Shown in pieces: positions 9,059-51,857 of a stretch of 64,000 nt of DNA. A program made the translations under genes and the position numbers. Position 1 is the stretch's first letter; the number at the start of each line of letters is the position of its first letter. The stretch spans positions 146,940,001 through 147,004,000 of the forward strand of contig OZ024743.1 of the NCBI GenBank assembly GCA_964016885.1, read 5' to 3'. This DNA is from Eledone cirrhosa. Taxonomy: Eukaryota. Below the pieces are notes generated by a model. It was not told the origin of the DNA, searched no databases, and worked only from the letters and a program-made list of their open reading frames with translations.

Positions 9059-9956
9059 CGGGGTGTGTCAGAAAAGTTCCAGGACTGATGTCACAAAAGA
9101 TTTATTTCAAACCCAAACTTCACAATAAGAGTTTTCTCCTTCAAAGTAATCCCCCTGGAGTCTAATGCACTTTTCCATCCTTTTCTGCCACACTTGCATG
9201 CTCTCCTGGAAGGATTCTTCCGGGATCCTCCGCAGTTCCGTCGTCACGGCCTTTTTGATGTCGTCCACATCTTCTAAACGGGTTCCCTCCCGGTCGTACT
9301 CGAAGATCCATGACTCAACACCGGTGATGACTGTCCCTAGCAAGTCTGGTTCTGTTTCAAGGCGCTCGAGGATGTCCTGGCACATTTGCATACGTCGCCC
9401 CTTCTGGTCATCGTTCAGCAGTTTTGGCACCATCTTCGCGCAAACTTTCCGCATGTCCAAATCTTCAGTGAGAATCTTCCAGACGCTGTCCCGATTCATG
9501 CCCAGCTCATTTGCCATCAGTCGAAGAGTCAGCTGACGATCACTACGCACCATCTGCCTGGCGCGCTCAACGTTGACCTCAGTACTGGTTGTTGAGGGCC
9601 TTCCGCTCCTGGGGTCATCTTCCACGTCCTCGCGTCCTTCTTTAAACCTCTTGCACCACTCAAAAACACGTGAGCGTGACATCGTCTCATCTCCATACAC
9701 TTGCTGCAGCGGAGTTTTCCCCAACCGTACCAGAAACTTCAAATTTGTTCGTTGCTCTGTGTTCATTGCTTGACGACCTGAAACAGAGGACATGTATATA
9801 AAATTATGAAGAAAAAAGTTTGATCGCTGCAGAGAGCTAAGATTACAGTTACATACTCCAGGGGGATTACTTTGAAGGAGAAGACTCTTAGTGTGAAATT
9901 TGGGTTTGAAATAAATTTTTTGTGACATCAGTCCTGGGACTTTTCTGACACACCTC

Positions 9957-9957
<1 letters not shown>
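9059..9957 (-). mobile_element. Internally deleted mariner transposon with ~100 bp inverted ends
   Basis: TA flanks; MNTEQRTNLKF...DDPRSGRP...AKMVPKLL...ITGVESWIFEYD fused directly to the C-terminus (...GDYFEG); most of the catalytic domain is missing. Confidence 0.92.
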
Positions 9958-10040
<83 letters not shown>

Positions 10041-10240
10041 AGTATGTATACGCACATACATATATGTATACAGACGTACAGTAGTATGTATATATACATA
10101 CATGCACACATATATATATGTACGTATCGATTCACCGAACATTTATTATAATTCTCGGTGTATTTGTAAACAAACATCCCGAATTAAGCCGTACAGTGTC
10201 TAGCAACCATCGTGCTCATTTGTTTAACACTGACAAAGGA

Positions 10241-10283
10241 ACGCTGTACTAGTTTCAAGCTTATTAGCTATCGTCAGCAACGT
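10241..10283 (-). ncRNA. Minimal type-I hammerhead ribozyme (family 2)
   Basis: ACGTTG CTGACGA TAGCT-AATA-AGCTT GAAA CTAG TA CAGCGT; palindromic stem III ACUAGU, GUA cleavage triplet. Confidence 0.85.
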
Positions 10284-10559
10284 ATACCTTCCTGCCAGAT
10301 GATTGAACGTCTGAAAGTATATACTTTCCTTATGCATATTAACGTCTGTATACATATATGTATGTACGTATACCTACTTATATTTAAGTAACAGCCGTAC
10401 TAAGAGTGAGAAATGAAATTTCGCTTCATTTTTTCCGTTTATCGTTTTCGGTACCCCGGCCGATTAACTCACTCGATATGCAAATTAGGCTGCTCAGCCG
10501 TTAATATGCATAAAGAAAGTATATACTTTCAGACGTTTAATCATCTGGCAGGAAGGTAT

Positions 10560-10602
10560 ACGTTGCTGACGATATCTAATAAGCTTGAAACTAGTACAGC
10601 GT
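10560..10602 (+). ncRNA. Minimal type-I hammerhead ribozyme (family 2)
   Basis: acgttg ctgacga tatctaataagctt gaaa ctag ta cagcgt; one stem II mismatch. Confidence 0.8.
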
Positions 10603-11080
10603 TCCTTTGTCAGTGTTGAACAAATGAGCAACGATGGTTGCTAGACCCTGTACGGCTTAATTCGGGATGTTTGTTTACAAACACACCGAGCATTATAATA
10701 AATGTTCGGTGAATCCATACGTACATATATATATGTGTGCATGTATGTATATATATATATATATACATACTACTGTACGTCTGTATACATATATGTATGT
10801 ACGTATACATACTTATGTTTAAGTAACAGCCGTACTAAGAGTGAGAAGTGAAATTTCGTTTCATTTTTTTCCGTTTATATATATATATATATATATATAT
10901 AAGTTAAGACATTGAAATAAAAAATCAAGTCATTAGAGATATACTTCACTGCTTTACGATCGTTTCTAGATGGTGATAATACATTGCATCTATACTCAGT
11001 TATTGATCTATGTAAGTTTACAAACTATCAGATAGAGAGAATATTTACTTAGATGCATATCACCAGCTGTTTTTGGATAC

Positions 11081-11127
<47 letters not shown>

Positions 11128-11242
11128 AAATATTATATATATATATACACATGTAGTATGCTCTACGGTTCTTATATATTTGATATATATTTTCCTTATC
11201 GAGCCCTCTTTGGATTTTAGTCTTCAATTTTATTATTATTAC

Positions 11243-17075: not shown

Positions 17076-17524
17076 GAAGTTATATTTAATTTGTTGGGAT
17101 ACAACAAGCAAATATTTTTATAACTGATATAAAGCACTCAACAAATTATTGGAGTAAAAATACGATATTAACAAATGGAAACTATATTTATAAAACCATA
17201 TTTATTTCATTATACATATTTCAAGGACACCAAGTGAAATTATGGTGTGCTTTCATCAGATAAAATATAATATAGAGCAGTTTTATAAATAAATATTGAA
17301 TTCACATACCCTTAAAGAATGCGAACATTTCTGTTGGAAGCTCCCGGGAGCTTCCAACAGTAATGGTTGCATTCTTTAAGGGTATGTCAATATTTATTTA
17401 TAAAACTGATCTATATTATATTTTATCTGATGAAAGCGCACCATAATTTGACTTGGTGTCCTTGAAATATGTATAATGAAATAAATATGGTTTTATAAGT
17501 ATAGTTTCTATTTGTTAATATATC

Positions 17525-24372: not shown

Positions 24373-26753
24373 ATACTTTGGGAGGGTCATGTTGCCAATA
24401 AGAAACACACGCACCAGTTGCTTTCACTTCAATTTATTATAATAAATTTATAAATTTAGGAATTTATAAATTTCTGGTTGGTTGGTTGGTTCCACAACCA
24501 GATAGTTGTTTATATATTGTCAAAGTTCTTTCGTCACACATTCTGTGACCTCTTCAGTGACTGGGGATTCTTTTCTTTATTTTTGTGTCTCTCCTTTGTT
24601 CTGTCCTACGCCATTTTGTTTCTGTGTGTGTGTTGCGTGCTCAGTCTGCGCATGCGCCACATCCGGGTGTCTGTGTGTGTTTATATTTGTTTATTTATTT
24701 GTTTATTTACATGTTACCGGTTGGTTGTTTGTTCTATGTGTGTGTGTGTTTTCATTTTGTCCTTAATTGTAAGTTGTGATGTTGCTGTTCCACTCATATT
24801 TTCTATTTAATTTTGGTTGTAATTCTTTTATGTTTATTGCCTCTGTGATTTGTCTAAACATTGCGTCTTTTCTGTGTGTAGATTCTATTTTTATTTCTAT
24901 GTTCTCTAATTTACCCTTATGTTCTATTTTAGCATGTTGGTAGAGTACAGATGATTCTTTACTATCTTGAAGGTCTCGCCAGTGTTCATTTATCCGTTCC
25001 CCTACACTACGAGCTGTCTCACCTATGTACACTATATTTTTGTCTCTACATTGTCCTTCAGTACATCTTATGCTATACACTACATTTCTAGTTTTACAGT
25101 TAATATGGGGGCTTATTTTACAGGTTATACATTTCTTATCTATACAGGGGGTCTTTGGAAAGGGTATGTCTTGCTAATAAGTGTTTTTACGGAGGTACCT
25201 GGTCTTTCTACTATCTTAATATTGAGTTTATGTTTATCTAGGGCCCTTCTAAGCTAATTCACCTCTAGGGGTTGTATCGATGAACATTACACTCTGGTAT
25301 TTATTGCTATCATACCATGAGTTTATTCTATTAGCCTTATTCCTAGTTCTTTCTATTCTATTCCAAAATTTGCTCCTATACAAGGGGCAGGTCCCATTTG
25401 TGTCATTATTTACCAATTTTTCCCATTTGGTTCTGGCTCCTCTATACACTCTGATTCTATCTCTCTGATTGTAACCAGAGAACTGCATACGGTGGATGAA
25501 GTGTTGTATGTGTCTCTCTAGTTCTTCGGGGTTGCACATGCGGGACACGTTTCTCATCACCCGTACCAAATCCGCAATCAGTATGTTGATTTTGGTATGG
25601 TCCGAAACAGCCGAGTTTCGGTGGATCAGATGTTTGGAAGTCATGGGTTTGGCATAATGGGAATGGAGGATTTGTTTTTTGTTATTAATGGTATCTAACC
25701 AGAGCTGTGTGTCTAGTACAGGTAATCGATGGTTGGGGTGTTTACTTGGGTAGTCTATAGTAACTCTAATACTCTGGTGGATAGAGTTAGCTATTTGCTG
25801 GATGCTTTCCATTGTGTTTTTCTCTAGTTCCTGACTGTTCTCTAGTGGGGGTGTCTTAACTACGATGTTTATATCGTCAACGTAGCGGGAGTACATTATC
25901 AGGGTTAAGGGGTCTTCTAATTGTTCTTTAAGTTTAAGTTTAAGTCTACTTTTCTACCATACCATGAATAAGTTAGCTATGTCGCCTGCAATGCTAACAC
26001 CAATGGCTGCTCCTTCCTCTTGGGCATATGTTTTTCCATTAAATTTGAACATATGTTCCTTAGGGGTTAGTTTTATGCTGGCCCCTACCGCATGTGCAAT
26101 CATTTTCTTCAGTTCATCGTGGTTTTCGGGCGTCCGTATGGCTCTGGTCCACCCGTTCCATCTATCTGTGTGGGTTTTCTTGGCCATTGAGGTAATGGTA
26201 GGTAGTCTGCCTCTTGCTGGTCTTGTAGGACACAGGTTGCTAAGGTCATATGTGTCTAGGTAATTATTACTATAGGTAAGTTTAAGTAGGAGTCCCAGCT
26301 CACTGGTATCAATCCCACGGAACTCAACCTTGCTCTCACTGATCATTTCTACGCATTTCTCCACAGCAAAATCCACGTCAATAGATGGATACAGGGACAC
26401 AACATCCATACTACCTATTATGCAGTTTGTTAGGTCCCTAGATCGGTTACTCTCGCCGATTCTGCTGAGGAGGTCCTCCGTGTAGTCATATACATCTGGG
26501 GACATTTCAATGATGGGCGTATGATCAGGGAGAGGAAGTAGGACAGTCTGTAGTTACTAGCAATGTTAGCCCCACAGACTGGCCGTGTTGGTGGTCCCGT
26601 GACAGGGTCATTGCCCGTTTTATGGTCTAGGGACCTAACAAACTGCATAATAGGTGCGTGTGTTTCTTATTGGCAACATGACCCTCCCAAAGTATAACAA
26701 TATCGGTTTCAACACACGATTTCAGATAAAGAATCTTGCTAAACAAATTCAGA

Positions 26754-26842: not shown

Positions 26843-27432
26843 TAAACTTCTTTATTAGCCACAAGGGCACAAAAGAAGGGGACAAATACAAATGGGGAGT
26901 TTACATACAGGTATATGAAAATAAAACTATTAATACAATAACAAATAACAATTGAAATCCCCAATAGGGGGAAGTGTTACACAGGGGTTGTACACACCCC
27001 GAAAAAATGTACTACCTTCATCTCCAGGAGCACCAAGAGTGAGTACTCCCTTCCTCTCTTCCTCTCTTCCTCTTTTTCCTCAACCTACAGGCTTATATAG
27101 AGAGAAGGCCCAATCACTCGGGCCATCTTTGCCACATTCACCCACCTTTTATAAAATTTGCTGGGGTACAGCACCTCTCTCTCCATCCTGATTCTTCTTC
27201 CAAAATGATATTTGAAAAAACGATTCAGTTGCTCGCCGGAGAGAAAGGTGTCTGACCTCAGCCCTTTTAACCTCATCCACCATATAACCTCTTTCACCAT
27301 AGTCATAACACATAGGAAAACCGCCTCTCCCTCGTTTTTGAAGGAGGGTGGCGGTTTGATCATGACAATGGACTCGGTGGTCAACTGGATTGGTCCCACC
27401 CGCGACAATAGTCGTTCTACATGGCCCCACAG
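26836..27432 (-). mobile_element. 5'-truncated second copy of the Tx1-like LINE
   Basis: Diverged paralog of 27456-28070 (SRVGPIQLTTESIVMIKPPP); own AATAAA and TATC tail. Confidence 0.88.
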
Positions 27433-27455
27433 GAGGATTACTCATGATAATAGTG

Positions 27456-30400
27456 AAATAGATAACTTTCTTTTTATTTTCCACCAGGGCGTCAAAGAGT
27501 GGGACAAGTACAATGGGGGGAGTTTACACAAAAAGGCGTCTTCAATAAGGAGGAGGCAATAACAAAATATAAAAATATAAGATATAAAATATAACAAAAA
27601 TAAATTGAATAACAAAATCCTCAATAGGGAGGTCGCCCCCCCCCCCAAAAAAAAAGTGTGCAACCCTTCTCCTCGGGAGCACAGAGAGAGAGTGCTCCCT
27701 TGATCTTTTATCTTTCTCACCTACAGTCTGATGTAGAGTTAAGGCCCATTCACACAGGCCATTCTCGCCACTTTCACCCATCTTTCATAAAAACAGCTGG
27801 GGTGCAGCACCTCTCTCTCCATCCTGATTCATCTTCCGAAATAATATCGGAAGAAAAGAACAAGTTGTTGGCCAGAGAGAGAGGTGTCTGACCTCAGTCC
27901 TTTCAGACGCGTCCACCATACAACCTCTTTCACCATGGCTATTACGCACAGAAACACCGCCTCTCCTTCGTTTTTGAAGAGGGGAGGCGGCTTGATCGTT
28001 ACAATAGACTCGGTGGTCAACCGGATCGGTCCCACCCGTGACAGCAGTCGTTCGACATATCCCCACAGATCGGCAATGCCCGAGCAGTGTACCAATGCTT
28101 GTGCAACGGTTTCCTCTTCGCACACGCATCTGGGACAGATCTTTTTCGAGGGGTCCCTACCCGGGCGCCCGTGTCTGTAGAGCCTTTCTCGAACGGGCAG
28201 AGCCCCTCGGTAGCACTGCCAGGCCAGGGACCTCTGGAAGTTATCCATAGGTTCCGGGCTGAATGTCCTACCGAAGAGGTTGGCCAGTTCGTTTTCCTCC
28301 ATGTCTAGGGCTTCTCCGAGGGCGTCGTCGCACCTGCTAACCACCAGCCCTCTATAGAATGACGAGGTGGATTCTCCACTGACAGCCGGGTCCTCCTGCC
28401 AGAGAGCCGTGAGCGCCTGGGCACACTCGGTGTGCCAGGCGCCCAGCTTTCTCGGTCTTTGCTTGACCCAGGATTGAAGCTCGGTGAGCGAGACGAGTCT
28501 GGGAAAGGCTCGCCTCACAAACGGGGCCCACACCGGTTGACCGGTGAGGAATACCTGGAGGTGCCGTAACCTTAATGTGTGTTTGCGCATCATCAGCCAC
28601 GGTATCCCCAGCCCTCCTTTCGAAGGGTGTTGACAGCAGATGGATCTCCTCACCATAGGAGCCCGCTTCTTCCAAAGGAAGTGTGTGCGCTCCATTTTGG
28701 CGAGCGTTTCCCTTGGGCAAGGCACGACGGTCAGGCGGTAGTAGATGACGGACGCTATATACGTGTTCGCCACCTCCGCTCGACCTTTCAGGGACAGTTT
28801 GCACTCGGCCCACTTCTGGGTCAGTGCAAACACCCTGTTCGTTACCTCACCCCAGTTCTTCTCCACCTGGAGGTCTGGTCCGAACCAGAACCCGAGCAAC
28901 TTCACCGGGCCCTCCGTCCAGCGCCCGACGACGCCATCGGAGGGCATCGATCTGCCCCTCCACGTGCCGAGTTGCAGACGATCGACTTGTTCCGGTTCAG
29001 CTTAGCCCCTGTAAACCTTTCGTACTCCTCCAGTAAAGTGCCGATCGCCCCGATTTCCGATGCCGTCGACACCATTACTGTTACGTCATCGGCGTAGGCC
29101 GACACCGCTTTCCGTAATCCCGGTTCCAACGAGATTCCCTGCAACAACTCCAACTTCCGCAGCAGTGGCTCTAGAGTCATTACATACAGAAGGTAGGAGA
29201 GAGGGCACCCTTGTCGGATGGACCGCGTGATTTCGAACGGCTGCGAGAGGTAGCCGTTCACCTTGACCCTAGAGCAGACGCGGCTGCTGTGCATGGCAGT
29301 GATCCAGCCCCTGAAAACGGGTCCGAAGCCTACCGCCGCTAGCACCACATCCAGGTAACCATGGTCGACCATATTGAACGCTTTAGATTGATCCAAGTTG
29401 ATCAGGGCCCCACCAAAGCCGGGTTCGTTCCCAACCCTCTCTATGATGTATCGCATGAGGTGGAGGTTGTCATGGATGGACCTGGACTGGATATCACATG
29501 TCTGCGCATCTCCCACCAGGTTGCCCACGACAAGCGCCAACCTCTTTGATAGCACCTTGGCCAAAATCTGTAACTCTGTATTTAGCAGAGTTATGGGCCT
29601 GAAATTATTTATATCGTCCCCCTTGTTCTCGTCCTTCCTCACTAGCGTGACTACACCGTTGGTCACAGCACAGGGAATTCTCCCGTTCTGTTGCCAGTTG
29701 CAGTATACCGTCTCGAGGAGATCGGGGAACAAATCCGGCATAGCTAGATATAGTTCGTATGGAAGACCATCGAGACCCGGGGATTTGCGTTTGCCGCATT
29801 GGCTCAGCACGTCCTCTATCTCAGCGGCCGAAATCGGCTCCTCGCAGAACTTCGCCTCCCTGTCCGAGAGACGCAGCAGGCCGTCGAGGTATGGACCGAA
29901 GTCCACTTCGCCAACCGGTTCCCCGCCCCTTCCGAACAATCTGGCAAAGTGCTTTTGAAAAGCCTCGCACATCTGCTTAGGTTCAAGGATCACCCGTCCA
30001 TCCTGGTCTCGCAAAGACCGGATAGTGGATCTACTCCCTCTTTTGGCTTTTGTCACGCGGGCCCAGCTAACAGCTTTGGTCCCCTCGTTTCCCAGAGCAC
30101 GTATTTTGCTTCGGACGAAGCAACCTTCGTGTTTCGCGTCGAAGAACTGGCCCAGGGCCGTTCTCAACACTAGCACTCTGGCCACGTCGCCGCTTCTAAT
30201 TGCCTCTTCTACACTATCTACCAACTCCCTTTCCTTCCTATTTCTATTTGAGGCTAACTCCTTACTAAATTCTATAGAGACTACTCTAATCTCTCTTTTG
30301 AGAGATCCCCACCACCTGCTGTTGACGATGGCGCCCGTCAACCGCTCCTTAACTAAAGTGCTAATCCTGTCCCTGTAAGCTTTACTTGCCGGTAAGGAAA

Positions 30401-33178
30401 AGTTGAGCTTCCAGTAACCGGGTCCCTGTCTATGCGTTCTGTCAAAGTTGACTATGCAGGTCACTAACTTGTGGTCTGAATAGCCAACCATGAGCATTTT
30501 TGAACAATTTAAAAAGTCCTTATCCTTATTTCTAACTAAGAACCTATCTAGGTACGACCTAGATGATCCGCTGAGGTTTGCCCAAGTTCAGGTTGGCGCA
30601 GTCGGAAAATCTAGTCGATATCTATCGGCCAGGTCAAATCGACCGATTAACCCTTTGAGGCTGTTACACCCCTCTCTATCGAGACAGGCCCCTACGTAGT
30701 CCCAACGTGCATCTAGGATACCATTTCAGCCCACCACTAATATCAAGGAGCGGGACGTCCCTAGAAAAGTCTCCAGACGATGGAAGAAGTCCGGCCGCGT
30801 TGACCCGAAAGGGCCGTAGACGGCTACCAGCCTAAACGCTCCGCCTTCACCACTGCCAAGGTCCAGAACCACTAGTCGACTCTCCGGGTCCAAATGTACC
30901 GACTGTGTTGCGAGACCCAGATGTTTTTGCAGCAGAAGGAGAAACCCCACCCCCACCTCCGGGCTGACAGAGAGATGCGTGCATCTCAAAGTCATCAAAG
31001 GTGGGGGCCAGCTGTCGCATGTTGGTGATCCGGGCCTCGCAAATAACCATCACACCTATATGTTGTGACCTGAGGTCATTTAGAAGCATTGCTTGCTTCC
31101 AAGTTGAGCCCAGGCCACGCGCATTTAGACAACCTACTCTTAGCATAGCCATGTTGGTGGTGAAGAGAAAAGGCACTTACCTCTCTGCATCCCGGGTATC
31201 GGGCTGCACAATTTCCATGAGGGTGGGGGATGGGTTGTTGGGTTGGGTGGTGGATTGTGGAAGTATAGGGGCATCAGTGTGTTGTGTGGTTGGGGTGTTT
31301 GGAGTTGCGTGGGTGTTTGGGGAGGGGGTGGGGAAATTTTTAGGAGGACGCAGTTAATGGGCCCGCCGCAGGGGGGGGGGGGGGCACATCCTCTTTAAAG
31401 TTGTTTTTTAGTGTTTTATATGTGTCCTCTGGGGCATTAATCATTTTGAGGTGGGGGAAATCCCCTGCCTGGGTGAAGTTAGGCCCTTGGGTTTTTACTA
31501 AATTGTTGTTGTATACAATGTTTATCAGTTTTTTTTTTATTTCTTGTGTTTATGTATGTGTATGCATGTTTTTGTTTTTGTGTGGTGTGTTTTGTTTGCT
31601 GTTGTTGTGTGCTCTTTTGTGTTGGTGTCTGTGTTATGTTTTGGGGAGGGGTTTTTTTCATTTGTGTGTCTGAGGTGTGTTTTCTTTTTTTTCTTTTGAT
31701 TGTGTGGTAGTGCTCCTCTTCGTCTGAGGACGAACGAGGGTCATCTTCCGCGTTAGGGAGGAGGGGTAGACTTTCGGGTTGTGTTTGCGGTGCGGGTATT
31801 TTGGAAATTGTTTTTTTTTAGTGTGTGTGTGTGGGGGGGGGGGCAGTGTTTTGTTTTGGTTTGAGCTGTGGTTGTTGTTTTTTGTAGTGGTGGTTACGGT
31901 GATTGTGTTGGTTGCGCAATTGTTGGTGGTGTAGGCAGGATTGGGGTTTTCTTTTTAAGTTGAGGACAGACAGCCCTCGGGTCACCTCTGGCTCCACAGA
32001 GGTAACACGAGGGCCGCCTACTCTCAACGGTAATGTTGATAAAAGTTTGATCATCCAGTATGACGCGTTGAGGGATCTGGGCGATCCTTTCGGGCCTCAT
32101 TTGAACTACAAGTTCGAGGCCCGTTCCACTGAACGCGTCACCCGATGCCTTTCCCATGGATATTAGTGTGTCATCGTCTAGGTCCAGGAAACCTGTCAAT
32201 ACCCATCATATGTCCATAATCGGCAGGATGGTGTGAATTTTTATTTTTTGTGTCCTTCTACCCATGTACGTAGGGTAGAAGATGTATGCGGTGGATGTGA
32301 TTGGTTTTATTGACAATTTCGCTGCCGTGTCCCTGTCCTTCATGAGAATGGATAGACTCCCGTAGAGTCTATCCTTCTGAATGAATATGATGTCTTTCAT
32401 GACATCTTTTAAAACCAGCTCTATCTCACTCTGTGATGGTTGAGCTGGTTTTTTGCTTTTGTTTGAGACTGTCCTAAACATGACAATGTTTAGGAGTCTC
32501 TGGCTTTTTAGTTCCGGGGGGGGGGGGGGGCGGGGTTCGAAAATGATCCATTTTCCACGTACACTATGTATTTTTTGGCATCTGCCAGTAGCTCCTTCGC
32601 TTTGCTTATATCTACTGGCAGATAGTCGAGTGTTTTCCTTGCAGTCTGGGCGAAGGAGACCTTTTCCTTGTTCGTGTTGCTGTTGTAGTTGGTGGTGTTG
32701 TTGTTATCATTGTTGTTGGTGTTGTTGTTTTTGTTGTCTTTATTGTTGCTGTTGTTGTCGTTGTTGTTGTTGTTTTCGGTTTCTTGGTTTCTACTTTTTG
32801 GCACAAGGCCAGCAATTACCCAGTTTATTACTGTGTAGTTGTGGCTACATCAAGTTGTCGGTCAGCAGGTCGGTCATCTGCTGCTGTGACAGTGGCAGGG
32901 GGAAGCTGTGAGTTTAGTTTCCCTTTTCTTTCTTTGAATGTTGGTGAAGATGCTTCAGCCATTTTTATCAAAGTAGGAAATTTTTCGAAAGATAACATTT
33001 TTTTCCCCCAACACAATTTCGCCTAAAGGCGTAGAATAATTTGAGAGACTGACCAGATCAAAATTTGACCTGGCAGTCCCTCTACAAAATGGTACAAAAA
33101 TGAAAGTTTACAGTTTGGAATTTCTATGGAAATTTAGGCAGAACTTACCCAGCAAGTTTTACGCGTGTGTCCATCCCA
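27456..33178 (-). mobile_element. Near full-length L1/Tx1-clade LINE, disrupted
   Basis: ORF1 relics ~33016-31177 (CYLCGARGDPRAVC knuckle-like motif); ORF2 from 31152: LNARG, SDH, PGYWKLN, SPGLDG, FRPITLLN, LDQSKAF, RQGCPLS, AYADD, CPRC...H...C; GATA repeats at both ends. Confidence 0.95.
28902..30497 (-). pseudogene. LINE ORF2 reverse transcriptase, largest open segment
   Basis: 531 aa ORF with the non-LTR RT motifs through YADD; frameshifted on both sides. Confidence 0.93.
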
Positions 33179-36898: not shown

Positions 36899-37269
36899 TA
36901 CAATATATTAACAAATGGAAACTATATTTATAAAACCATATTTATTTTATTATACATATTTCAAGGGCCACCAAGGTAAATTATGGTGCGCTTTCATCAG
37001 ATAAAATACAACCGTTAAGGTTGTCTTTTTTCAGAGTATGTCAATATTTATTTATAAAACAAATCTGTATTGTATTTTATCTGATGAAAGCGCACCATAA
37101 TTTGCCTTGGTGGCCCTTGAAATATGTATAATAAAATAAATATGGTTTTATAAATATAGTTTCCATTTGTTAATATATTGTATATTTACTCCACCAAAGT
37201 GTTGAGTGCTTTATATCAGTTATAAACATTTTTAAGCTTGTTGAATCCCAACAAATTAACTATAACCTC

Positions 37270-47824: not shown

Positions 47825-49823
47825 GTTATACTTGGGGAGGGTCATATTGTTGTAATAATATTGCCAGAAATAATAACAGAACACACTCACTGTTTGGTTG
47901 GTTTTCGCTTCTGTATGTTTTATATCTCCATAGTTAATTTATTTGGCCATCAATGTTTATCACTGACTGACCAACGGTCAAAAATACAGATATAAATACA
48001 TATAAATATAGTCTTTCATTGCACATCTGCAACATCATCAGTGGTACTATTATGTTTCCTCCTGTTGTATTGTATGTCTACGCCATTTTTATTTTATCTG
48101 TTTATTTATTTATTTTTGTTTGCGTGTGTGTATAGTGTTTGGTGTGTGTGTTTGCGTTTGGGTGACTGTATTTTGCTTATTGTATTCTATCTTAGTTTAT
48201 TATGTGTGTTTATATGTGTCTCTTGTTATTGTGCTTGTGTATATATTTATTTATTTTATTTATTTATTTATATTTCTCTTAAGTCAGTATTGTTTGTTTG
48301 GGTGTTGTTGTTATTCCATTCATTTTTTCTGTTTAGATTTGGCATTCTAAGCCCTATTTCGCTTGCTTCTCTGATTTGCCTACCTGTTGGGTCATTTCTA
48401 TGTTTAGATATTATTTTAATTTCTATGTTGTCTATGTTACCATCATGTTGTCGCGTGTTCATATAGTACTGAACCGTTTTTTGGTCCTTTTAGTTCCCCC
48501 TGTGTTGGTCTATTCTTTCTCCTATGCTTCGAGCTTACTCACCTATGTATGTAGCTGTCATGTTTCTGCAAGTACTTTCTGTACATCTTATGCTATGGAC
48601 AACATTTCTAGTTTTACAGTTTATCTGGGGGTTTAATTTACATATAACACATTTCATATTAGCATAGTGGGTTTTCTTAAAAGTGTATGTTTTGCTGATT
48701 AGGGATTTTATGGTAGTTCCTGGCTTATTTACCACTTTAATCTTTAAGTGGGCCATTCTACATTGGTTAGCTAATTTCCCTCCAGGTGTAGCATCCACGA
48801 ACATGACACTCTGGTATCTCTGGTTGTCGTACCATGAGGTGGCTTTCCCTATCTTATGTTTAGTCCTATCTAAGTTATTCCATGATTTGCTCCTGTATAA
48901 TGGGCAAATTCCTTTCATGTCTAGTTCTATGAGGGTCTTATACTTCTCTGTGGCTCCTTTGTGTACTCTGATTCTGTCTCTTTGGATGTAGCCAGAGAAC
49001 TGCATGTGGTTGATGAAGTGTTGGATGTGTCTTTCCATTTCTGTTGGGTCGCACATGCGGGACACGTTCTTCATCACTCGTACCAAGTCTGCGATCAGAA
49101 TATTAAACTTAGCACTACTGGTCATTGCTGAGTTTTTGAGTATCAGGTATTTGGAGGCCATGGGTTTAGCATAGTGTGAGTGGAGAATTTGGGCCCTCTC
49201 ATCTATAGTGTTAATCCAGAGTTCCGTGTCTAATACAGGTAGTCTATTGTTAGGGTAGTCAATAGTTACAGTTATACTCTGGTGTATGGAGTTAGCTATC
49301 TGCTGGATGCTTTCCATTGTGCTATATTCTAAATCATGTTCATTAGTACTCTCTTGTGGGGGTGTCCCATGGGAGTCTTTTTTGCCATTGAGTTTATGAT
49401 GGGGGTCTACCTCTAATGGGTCTACTAGGGCAGAAATGGCTAAGGTCATGGCTGTCTAGGTACTCGGTGTCATAAGTAAGTCTAAGTAGGAGGCCCAGTT
49501 CATCTGTGTCGACGACGCAGAACTCCACCTCTCACTGATTATTTCCACACATTTTTCCGCAGCAAAATCAATGTTAATGAATGGATACAGTGATACGATG
49601 TCCATACTGCCTACTATGCAGTTAGGAGGTTTTTGTTTTTATTACACTCATTTATTCTGCTGAGGAGGTCCTCTGTACTGTCACATACATCTGGGGACAT
49701 CTTAATTATGGAGTATGTTCTGTTATTATTTCTGGCAATATTATTAGAACACTATGAGCCTCGCCAAGTGTAACAATATTTGTTTCGACACACGATTTCA
49801 TATCAAAACCCTTGCAAAACAAA
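47825..49823 (-). mobile_element. Penelope-like retroelement, second diverged copy with internal RT deletion
   Basis: LPVLDTELW, HYAKPMASK, TYIGE; inverted 3'-end copy 49711-49778 plus tail 49779-49823; hammerhead core at 48009-48045 (CTGATGA..TTGCA-GATG-TGCAA.GAAA). Confidence 0.9.
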
Positions 49824-49837
49824 TATATATATATATA

Positions 49838-50278
49838 TACGATATATTAACAAATGGAAGCTATATTTATAAAACAATATTTATTTAATTATACATATTT
49901 CAAGGGCACCAAATTAAATTATGGTGTGCTTTCATCAGATAAAATATAATATAGATCAGTTTTATAAATAAATAAATAAATATTGACATACCCTTAAAGG
50001 ATGCGACCATTCCAACAGAAATGGTCGCATTCTTTAAGGGTATGTCAATATTTATTTATTTATTTATAAAACTGATCTATATTATATTTTATCTGATGGA
50101 AGCACACCATAATTTAATTTGGTGTCCTTGAAATATGTATAATGAAATAAATATGGATTATAAATATAGTTTCCATTTGTTAATATATCGTATTTTTACT
50201 CCAATAATTTGTTGAGTGCTTTATATCAGTTATAAAAATATTTGCTTGTTGTATCCCAACAATTTAAATAGAACTTCT

Positions 50279-50587: not shown

Positions 50588-51044
50588 TATGTAGAAGTTA
50601 TATTTAATTTGTTGGGATATGTAGAAGTTATATTTAATTTGTTGGCAAATATTTTTATAACTGATATAAAGCACTCAACACATTTTTGGAGTAAAAATAC
50701 AATATATTAACAAATGGAAACTATATTTATAAAACCATATTTATTTCATTATACATATTTCAAGGACACCAAAGCAAATTATGGTGCGCTTTCATCAGAT
50801 AAAGTATAATATAGATCAGTTTTATAAACAAATATTGACATACCCTTAAAGAATGCGACCAAGAATGCTTCCAACCGACATGGTCGCATTCTTTAAGGGT
50901 ATATTAATATTTGTTTATAAAACTGATCTATATTATATTTCATCTGATGAAAGCGCACCATAATTTGCTTTGGTGTCCTTGAAATATGTATAATGAAATA
51001 AATATGGTTTTATAAATATAGTTTCCATTTGTTAATATATTGTA

Positions 51045-51082: not shown

Positions 51083-51087
<5 letters not shown>

Positions 51088-51140
51088 GTAAGTATGTATG
51101 TATACGTACATACATATATGTATACAGACGTACAGTAGCA

Positions 51141-51208
<68 letters not shown>

Positions 51209-51697
51209 TACACATATGCATACAGGTACACATACATATATGCACGCATCAGTTTAGCCGACGTTTATTATAACGCCGGCCGCTTTGTTCGTTTGTTTGT
51301 CAACAAACCGAACAGCCTGAATTTATGCCATACGGTGTTAAGGCAACCACGTCACCTTTTTGTTCAACACTGACACAGGAACGATGTACTAGTTTCAAGC
51401 TTGTTAGCTATCATCAGCACCGTTTACCCATCTGCCAGATAGTTGAACGTTCGAAAGTATATACTTTCCTTATGAAAATTAACGGCTGAGCAGCCTAATT
51501 TGCATATTGAGTGAGTTAAATCGGTCAGGCATACCGAAAACGATAAGTTGAAAAAAATGAAAACGAAATTTCATTTCTCACTCTTAGTATGGCACTTACT
51601 TGTTGACAAACAAACGAACAAAGCGGCCGGCGTTATAATAAACGTCGGCTAAACTGATGCGTGCATATATGTATGTGTACCTGTATGCATATGTGTA

Positions 51698-51741
<44 letters not shown>

Positions 51742-51852
51742 TGCTACTGTACGTCTGTATACATATATGTATGTACGTATACATACATACTTACATTTAA
51801 GTAAGTGCCATACTAAGAGTGAGAAATGAAATTTCGTTTTCATTTTTTTCAA

Positions 51853-51857
<5 letters not shown>
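51083..51857. mobile_element. Hammerhead-bearing fold-back element family 2, second copy
   Basis: Minus arm 51083-51600 runs through the unit junction; plus arm 51601-51857 carries the tail. Confidence 0.85.
51381..51423 (-). ncRNA. Minimal type-I hammerhead ribozyme (family 2)
   Basis: ACGGTG CTGATGA TAGCT-AACA-AGCTT GAAA CTAG TA CATCGT. Confidence 0.85.

What the first reader, a model, noticed from the sequence alone, without database searches (positions are those of the whole stretch)
10038..10878. Family 2: ~435 nt head-to-tail permuted hammerhead unit, a candidate circRNA-templated retrozyme
Seen: the plus arm is a 1.2-mer in which the unit end (...ttccgtttat) runs straight into the unit start (cgttttcgg...). 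The independent, diverged copy at 51083-51857 spans the same junction on the minus strand, so the junction belongs to the template. The unit is non-coding and has one canonical hammerhead, with a U-G to G-U swap in stem I between the two loci. Established: metazoan non-LTR retrozymes are tandem units with type-I hammerheads that yield circular RNA and are thought to be PLE-mobilised. Inference: reverse transcription around a circle or tandem transcript, followed by PLE-style inverted second-arm synthesis. I do not know of this combination being described in cephalopods.
Basis: partly seen in the sequence, partly recalled or inferred. Interest (0 to 1): 0.88.

Follow-up and report, generated by a model that had tools for sequence, protein, structure and literature searches.

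The report
Hammerhead retrozyme with Penelope insertion footprint
This is one copy of a very abundant non-coding repeat with a hammerhead self-cutting RNA motif that sits in TA microsatellites as two back-to-back arms, nearly always one ending at each of two fixed points about 60 bases apart, which is the footprint of Penelope-type jumping genes and so likely shows how such repeats are copied; a circular RNA intermediate is predicted but untested.

Summary
Locus 10038-10878 is a 1.23-mer of a 436-nt non-coding unit plus an inverted arm between (TA)n tracts. It has two type I hammerheads, not one, and the plus-arm copy is damaged in stem II. The genome has 24,152 exact hammerhead cores, in dispersed copies and arrays.

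Arm 3' ends fall at two sites about 60 nt apart (S and L). In 55 of 59 classifiable two-armed insertions one arm ends at each. This is the Penelope-like element (PLE) 'tail', shown in vitro to mark two internal reverse-transcription starts. ORF-bearing PLEs in this genome do the same. Arms run through the hammerhead cut site in 101 of 102 cases although the ribozyme is conserved, so the template was re-ligated or uncut.

It is a new animal non-LTR retrozyme, very likely PLE-mobilised (0.9). A circular template is plausible (0.55) but unproven: no RNA data, no partner PLE found, and long arrays also grow locally. I did not find this anatomy in print for retrozymes, but this scan noted it before, in this genome and others.

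The parts
9958..10037 (.). (TA)n tract, left half of the target
   Evidence: sequence
10038..10344 (-). Inverted, 5'-truncated arm (unit ~57 to 377); its 3' end points outward and stops at the short end S
   Evidence: BLAST extends it to 10348
10247..10277 (-). Intact type I hammerhead core; predicted cut between 10247 and 10246
   Evidence: descriptor scan; fold
10342..10344 (.). Head-to-head junction of the two arms, 3-nt microhomology
   Evidence: sequence
10342..10442 (+). Partial upstream unit (335-436), the pLTR-like direct repeat of 10777-10878
   Evidence: 95% identical
10443..10878 (+). One complete 436-nt unit ending at the long end L
10478..10485 (+). Octamer-type motif ATGCAAAT; possible promoter element (name recalled, function untested)
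   Evidence: 99.3% column identity over 115 units; invariant in 22 aligned rows
10534..10618 (+). Long interrupted stem I that closes the hammerhead
   Evidence: consensus fold; 97.7% of cells paired
10566..10596 (+). Type I hammerhead core with a private stem II mutation at 10575; cut site after 10596
10725..10816 (+). Internal TA-rich, self-complementary tract of variable length, ending at site S (10816)
10817..10878 (+). About 60-nt tail between S and L, with a hairpin and a T run
10879..10901 (.). (TA)n tract, right half of the target
   Evidence: sequence
51083..51601 (-). Second locus, young subfamily: 1.0-unit arm ending at S
   Evidence: 356-nt part matched at 100% by 5 other places
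51387..51417 (-). Intact hammerhead core of the second locus
51600..51857 (+). Second locus: inverted truncated arm ending at L

Best explanation
This is a protein-free tandem hammerhead repeat (a non-LTR retrozyme) whose copies sit in (TA)n tracts as head-to-head arms ending at two fixed sites, and it is likely copied in trans by a Penelope-type reverse transcriptase-endonuclease, probably from a circular RNA. Steps: (1, inferred) tandem copies are transcribed, perhaps from the internal octamer-type motif. (2, predicted) two neighbouring hammerheads pair through their palindromic helix III and cut, releasing 420-570-nt monomers, which a host ligase closes, as shown for other animal retrozymes. 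(3, inferred) the PLE enzyme cuts both strands of a (TA)n tract, and each free end primes reverse transcription at an internal RNA site. (4, shown as a genomic pattern) one end starts at S and the other at L, about 60 nt apart, and the two arms usually come from the same template variant. (5, shown) synthesis runs through the ribozyme cut site and often past one unit, and stops at scattered positions. (6, inferred) the two cDNAs join head to head by microhomology or at palindromes. (7, shown in part) some arrays later expand by local duplication up to satellite size.
For: Two end classes: 78 of 93 arms in a position-ordered sample of 55 loci end at S or L, 74 of the 78 directly before TA repeats; 26 of 55 loci have a head-to-head second arm. 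Pairing rule: 52 of 56 classifiable pairs are S/L; after removing one local duplicate and adding four pairs from extended or new loci, 55 of 59, p about 1e-12 against 50%. ORF-bearing PLE families of this genome have the same two-end pattern (tails about 60-90 nt), with 8 of 10 head-to-head pairs of mixed type. In vitro, a PLE protein cuts and extends both strands and starts at two internal sites that define the tail (PMC11167929). Sister arms share a rare allele in 15 of 62 loci, against 15 of 5,228 pairs from different loci. Only 1 of 102 units stops at the cut site; about 2 are expected from uniform truncation at a mean arm length of 641 nt. The ribozyme is conserved: in 97 units found without using the core, changes seen in more than 3 loci between 121 and 157 lie at N7, loop II and the stem I pair; catalytic positions change in 1-2 loci only. 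Conservation plus read-through is most simply met by cut-and-religate. The unit is strongly self-paired, z about -7 without the TA tract. Frames with RT and GIY-YIG domains exist in the genome.
Against: No autonomous partner was identified: the tail shows no significant likeness to 10 PLE ends (best z 2.6 among 20 comparisons), and the one candidate fusion was a nested insertion. In vitro, the Anolis PLE used uncut RNA and did not need its hammerhead. Genomic arrays of at least 30 and 56 kb exist and could supply long uncut transcripts. One variant is present in only some units of two separate loci (L210, L213), so some templates were longer than a monomer. Periodic variants confined to one arm (L166, L179, L201, L207) show local duplication, so array length is no proof of rolling-circle copying. 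38 of 94 pairs could not be classified, and L209 has arms of two subfamilies, both ending at L. Only one stem pair is truly compensatory. In the 2026 preprint 8 of 9 predicted retrozyme dimers did not cleave.
Confidence: 0.55

Rival explanations
1. Same PLE enzyme and same two start sites, but the template is an uncut linear read-through transcript of tandem copies. The hammerhead fold is kept as part of the protein-binding platform or cuts only occasionally, and any circle is a by-product.
For: PMC11167929 found uncut RNA to be the dominant substrate and no reads ending at the cut site. Read-through in 101 of 102 units fits equally. Giant homogeneous arrays exist, and L207 shares both fixed variants of the C239 array. 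L210 and L213 share a partly distributed variant.
Against: Catalytic nucleotides do not vary among 9 subfamily majorities that are 78-97% alike (sampling partly by the core pattern, checked without it). Median arm length is 494 nt, so linear copying alone would wear arrays down. Of 12 dispersed stretches compared with the 60 sampled units of the C239 array, 3 shared one single-unit variant each and none an ordered series.
Confidence: 0.3
2. Only one arm is target-primed. The cDNA folds back at a palindrome and copies itself, and the endonuclease resolves the copy at S, leaving the tail on one side only.
For: Some junctions sit on palindromes with equal 5' positions (L125, L141, L154, L210, L245). 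L210 has 7 units on each arm with the same alternation. It explains the rare alleles shared by sister arms. Self-priming and endonuclease resolution were proposed for PLEs.
Against: In most pairs the two 5' positions differ widely, and either the S or the L arm may be much the longer, e.g. S 6.5 units with L 1.4, and S 2.3 with L 7.5. L209 has arms of different subfamilies. In vitro both strands are cut and extended.
Confidence: 0.1
3. The unit is only a detached PLE terminal repeat or a satellite, spread passively by truncation of full-length PLEs and by DNA-level duplication between TA tracts.
For: Truncated PLE ends look alike, and local duplication is real. The 2026 preprint suggests pLTRs seed local tandem repeats.
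Against: The unit wraps onto itself instead of entering an ORF; no PLE ORF is its natural upstream continuation in 130 fetched stretches. Dispersed copies are 100% identical over 356 nt, each with its own ends. DNA duplication cannot give the S/L rule.
Confidence: 0.05

Closest known systems
Animal non-LTR retrozymes (Cervera and de la Pena 2020, PMC7229834; Li, Clavereau and Pollet 2026, bioRxiv 10.64898/2026.07.22.740005)
   Same: Short non-coding tandem units with one type I hammerhead each, low GC, self-paired fold, monomers to long multimers, co-occurring with PLEs. The weak palindromic helix III and the U-U pair at the base of stem II resemble the axolotl motifs as described there.
   Different: Inverted second arms, two fixed 3' ends, the S/L pairing and (TA)n targeting were not mentioned in the parts I read (supplements not seen). 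Circular RNA was shown there for coral, mussel and axolotl, not here. No pLTR homologue was found here, unlike 21 PLE matches for Xenopus families.
Endonuclease-bearing Penelope-like elements and their insertion units (PMC8557442, PMC3846280, PMC11167929)
   Same: Partial tandem, adjacent inverted 5'-truncated copy, tail on one end only, (TA)n bias, type I hammerhead with palindromic helix III, two internal start sites.
   Different: No ORF; the whole 436-520-nt element is the repeat. The tail is about 60 nt, not 30-40 (ORF-bearing families here have 60-90). The hammerhead lies about 220 nt upstream of S, much further than in most local PLEs.
Newt satellite 2 and similar hammerhead satellites (as cited in PMC7229834 and PMC4209133)
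   Same: Dimer-type hammerhead in tandem units; satellite-size arrays occur.
   Different: Most copies here are dispersed 1-3-mers with retrotransposition ends. An octamer promoter in satellite 2 is recalled, not confirmed.

Membership tests
Non-LTR retrozyme | Short head-to-tail repeat unit | tested here: met
   420-570-nt units; 10 of 55 position-ordered loci have an arm of 1.9 units or more; arrays over 59 units
Non-LTR retrozyme | Type I hammerhead in each unit | tested here: met
   descriptor, conservation and pairing; Rfam models did not match
Non-LTR retrozyme | No protein coding, no true LTRs | tested here: met
   longest internal frame 68 aa; the terminal repeat is a variable partial unit
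Non-LTR retrozyme | Self-cleavage of the RNA | not testable with these tools
   needs a dimer cleavage assay
Non-LTR retrozyme | Expressed as linear and circular monomer | not testable with these tools
   no RNA holder listed
Non-LTR retrozyme | Autonomous PLEs in the same genome | tested here: met
   10,597 GIY-YIG candidates; a 938-aa frame with RT and GIY-YIG
PLE-type insertion unit | Partial tandem (pLTR) with 5' truncation | tested here: met
   45 of 78 arms exceed one unit; 5' ends scattered
PLE-type insertion unit | Adjacent inverted 5'-truncated copy | tested here: met
   26 of 55 position-ordered loci
PLE-type insertion unit | Tail on one end only | tested here: met
   55 of 59 classifiable pairs
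PLE-type insertion unit | Microsatellite target | tested here: met
   74 of 78 S or L ends abut TA repeats
Autonomous PLE | RT plus GIY-YIG ORF between the repeats | tested here: not met
Derivative of a named PLE family | Sequence homology to a PLE pLTR | tested here: inconclusive
   none in 50 GIY-YIG loci or 10 family ends; only a part of the genome's PLE families was sampled

The most novel reading that the evidence does not exclude
A dimeric Penelope enzyme loads on one circular ribozyme RNA, cuts both strands of a (TA)n tract and reverse-transcribes from both ends at once, one subunit at S and the other at L, rolling round the circle with strand displacement. The genomic arms would then be the first record of twin rolling-circle retrotransposition, and a 436-nt RNA with no sequence likeness to its enzyme's own element would be a minimal trans substrate.
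Probability: 0.3. Interest if true: 0.8.

Novelty: new member of a known kind. Interest (0 to 1): 0.52.

Why it matters
How animal retrozymes move is stated as open in the 2026 preprint, and PLE involvement rests on co-occurrence and pLTR likeness. This family carries the PLE integration footprint itself, in over 24,000 hammerhead copies including near-identical young ones, and maps both priming sites to a few bases. It also turns the PLE 'tail on one end' into a counted rule (one arm per start site) and offers a small non-coding substrate to test circle against uncut multimer, a question open for PLEs too. The class, the circle model and the PLE link are all already proposed, which caps the surprise.

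Tried and rejected
Rfam scan: no hammerhead family, only microsatellite noise. Sequencing runs: no RNA holder listed; contigs of four runs of unknown kind gave nothing usable on RNA ends or level. Partner by tail likeness: an eye-catching match to the L091 family end was not significant (26 of 300 shuffles as good). Partner by fusion: L030, where a PLE ORF lies upstream on the same strand, is a nested insertion; the other copies printed keep their own 3' region (part of the output was cut). A second family with the same helix III and a longer stem II: none among 71 matches, which were family variants or chance (9 control matches). Period-2 arrays as proof of dimer circles: rejected, since in L166 the fifth, partial unit breaks the period; L210 remains suggestive only. 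Pile-up of 5' ends at the cut site: none (0 of 226, a sample biased by selection on the core; 1 of 102 unbiased). Circular-fold z-scores of -12 and -13 are inflated by the TA tract; -7 without it. The hammerhead domain alone folds no better than shuffles in 2 of 3 copies. Octamer promoter precedent: not found in the library. The supplement of PMC7229834 could not be read and those of the preprint were not seen; either could hold cephalopod examples or insertion structures.

Full report
Observation. The locus is as described. Between two (TA)n tracts lie a minus arm (10038-10344) and a plus arm (10342-10878), joined at their 5'-truncated ends by 3 nt of microhomology. The plus arm is 1.23 units of a 436-nt repeat. 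The second locus (51083-51857) has the same layout, a 518-nt unit and 78% identity. Each locus arm that covers the region carries a type I hammerhead: 6-bp stem I, 4-bp stem II on a U-U pair, and a one-pair helix III closed by a palindromic tetraloop. PMC4209133 (passages) describes this form as canonical for animals and active as a dimer. Rfam reported no hammerhead among 147 matches.

Family. The 31-nt core has 24,152 exact matches in G000 and the next 25-mer has 27,367; reversed controls gave 0. From 160 non-overlapping loci, 115 gave a full unit; these fall into 9 subfamilies, 78-97% alike. The subfamily of the second locus is very young, with dispersed copies at 99-100%. Core conservation in that set is partly built in, since many loci were found with the core. 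I therefore scored 97 units found through the downstream 25-mer (5 more set aside for indels or truncation). Changes in more than 3 loci between positions 121 and 157 lie at N7, loop II and the stem I pair 121/157; catalytic positions change in 1-2 loci. That pair is G-U, U-G or A-U; it is the only pair with a change on both sides among 23, and the rows are related.

Ends. In the 55 loci taken in order along contig C1, 78 of 93 arms end at one of two sites, S (unit about 374) or L (436), and 74 of those abut TA repeats. 26 loci have a head-to-head second arm. Over all sets there were 94 such pairs; 38 had an end elsewhere or off the fetched stretch; of the other 56, 52 were S/L, 3 S/S and 1 L/L. 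One S/L pair was a local duplicate; three long arrays and one new locus added four S/L pairs. That gives 55 of 59, and 18 of 19 in the position-ordered set. Both window loci are S/L. A tail on one end of an inverted insertion is the PLE hallmark (PMC8557442 and PMC3846280, passages). PMC11167929 (abstract and main text) shows that the tail is the stretch between two internal start sites and that the protein cuts and extends both strands. ORF-bearing PLE families here show two ends 60-90 nt apart, with 8 of 10 head-to-head pairs mixed.

Partner. The genome is rich in PLEs, and two decayed ones lie in the window. No family-2 copy in 130 fetched stretches continues naturally into an ORF; the single candidate was a nested insertion. 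Tail likeness to 10 PLE ends was not significant. The partner is unidentified, and clade names I used while working are recalled resemblances.

Template. A hammerhead-cut linear RNA would stop synthesis at unit 155. Only 1 of 102 units stops there, no more than uniform truncation gives. The template is thus continuous across the site: re-ligated or uncut. Conservation of the catalytic core favours cut-and-religate, the model of PMC4209133 and PMC7229834 (results and discussion read), where circles were shown in coral, mussel and axolotl. Sister arms share rare alleles far above control (15 of 62 against 15 of 5,228; most rare alleles, 199 of 220, are unshared later decay), so both arms usually come from one template variant. 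Against a pure monomer circle: L210 and L213 share a variant present in only some units; periodic variants in one arm show local duplication; arrays of at least 30 and 56 kb could give long transcripts; and the Anolis PLE used uncut RNA. No RNA data were available. I put PLE mobilisation at 0.9 and a mainly circular template at 0.55-0.6.

Comparison and novelty. It meets every genomic feature of animal non-LTR retrozymes; cleavage and circular RNA are untested. The 2026 preprint (main text read) derives retrozymes from PLE termini, sampled no mollusc and leaves the mechanism open. Searches for retrozyme with cephalopod, hammerhead with octopus, Penelope with mollusc and circular RNA, non-autonomous Penelope, and retrozyme with inverted and tail listed no paper describing this anatomy in a retrozyme; subscription papers and supplements were not seen. 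The host group was not tested. Earlier notes of this scan report the same kind of element and the two-site rule in this genome and others; I had reached the reading before seeing them, and they are not independent support. Verdict: a real, new member of a known kind with unusually clear evidence on how it is inserted; interest 0.52.

Noticed in passing
window 17211-17475, 36951-37130, 50750-50992 and near 49900: A second hammerhead family in head-to-head pairs; its ends also fall in two classes about 90 nt apart, and these three pairs are one of each. One shares a TA tract with the locus at 51083.
   Followed up: partly
window 24763-26553 (-), hammerhead-like motif at 24557; 48535-49455 (-): Decayed PLE with a GIY-YIG match and its own 3' hammerhead-like motif ending in (TA)n; a second PLE fragment.
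   Followed up: partly
window 11160-11242: The 88-nt tail of the very abundant 713-aa PLE-like family (L214-L220), next to the finding.
   Followed up: partly
window 9059-9957: Internally deleted mariner-like element with terminal inverted repeats in the same TA tract; resemblance recalled, not tested by a family scan.
   Followed up: no
L091/L100/L108 and L214-L220 3' ends: Young PLE families carry hammerhead-like folds with non-standard cores: U3 with A8 in one group, A in place of U4 in the 713-aa family. That protein has no Pfam match.
   Followed up: no
G000:C5:84373000 to beyond 84429900; G000:C239:96000-125900: Satellite-size arrays of this unit. The C5 array begins with an inverted arm, so a single insertion grew into a satellite; the C239 array is very homogeneous.
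   Followed up: partly
unit positions 117-127: 11 of 226 arm 5' ends fall on the 5' strand of stem I, about twice the uniform rate; perhaps a pause site, not significant over many windows.
   Followed up: no
unit positions 110 and 165 (window 10552 and 10607): These two positions tend to change together between subfamilies (G/T against A/G in 8 of 9), in the stem I internal loop; a possible non-standard contact.
   Followed up: no
L209 and L210: L209: two abutting arms from different subfamilies, both ending at L. L210: two 7-unit arms with strict alternation of two unit types.
   Followed up: partly
window 27085-32700 (-): Long frames of a non-LTR retrotransposon with endonuclease- and RT-like stretches.
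   Followed up: no
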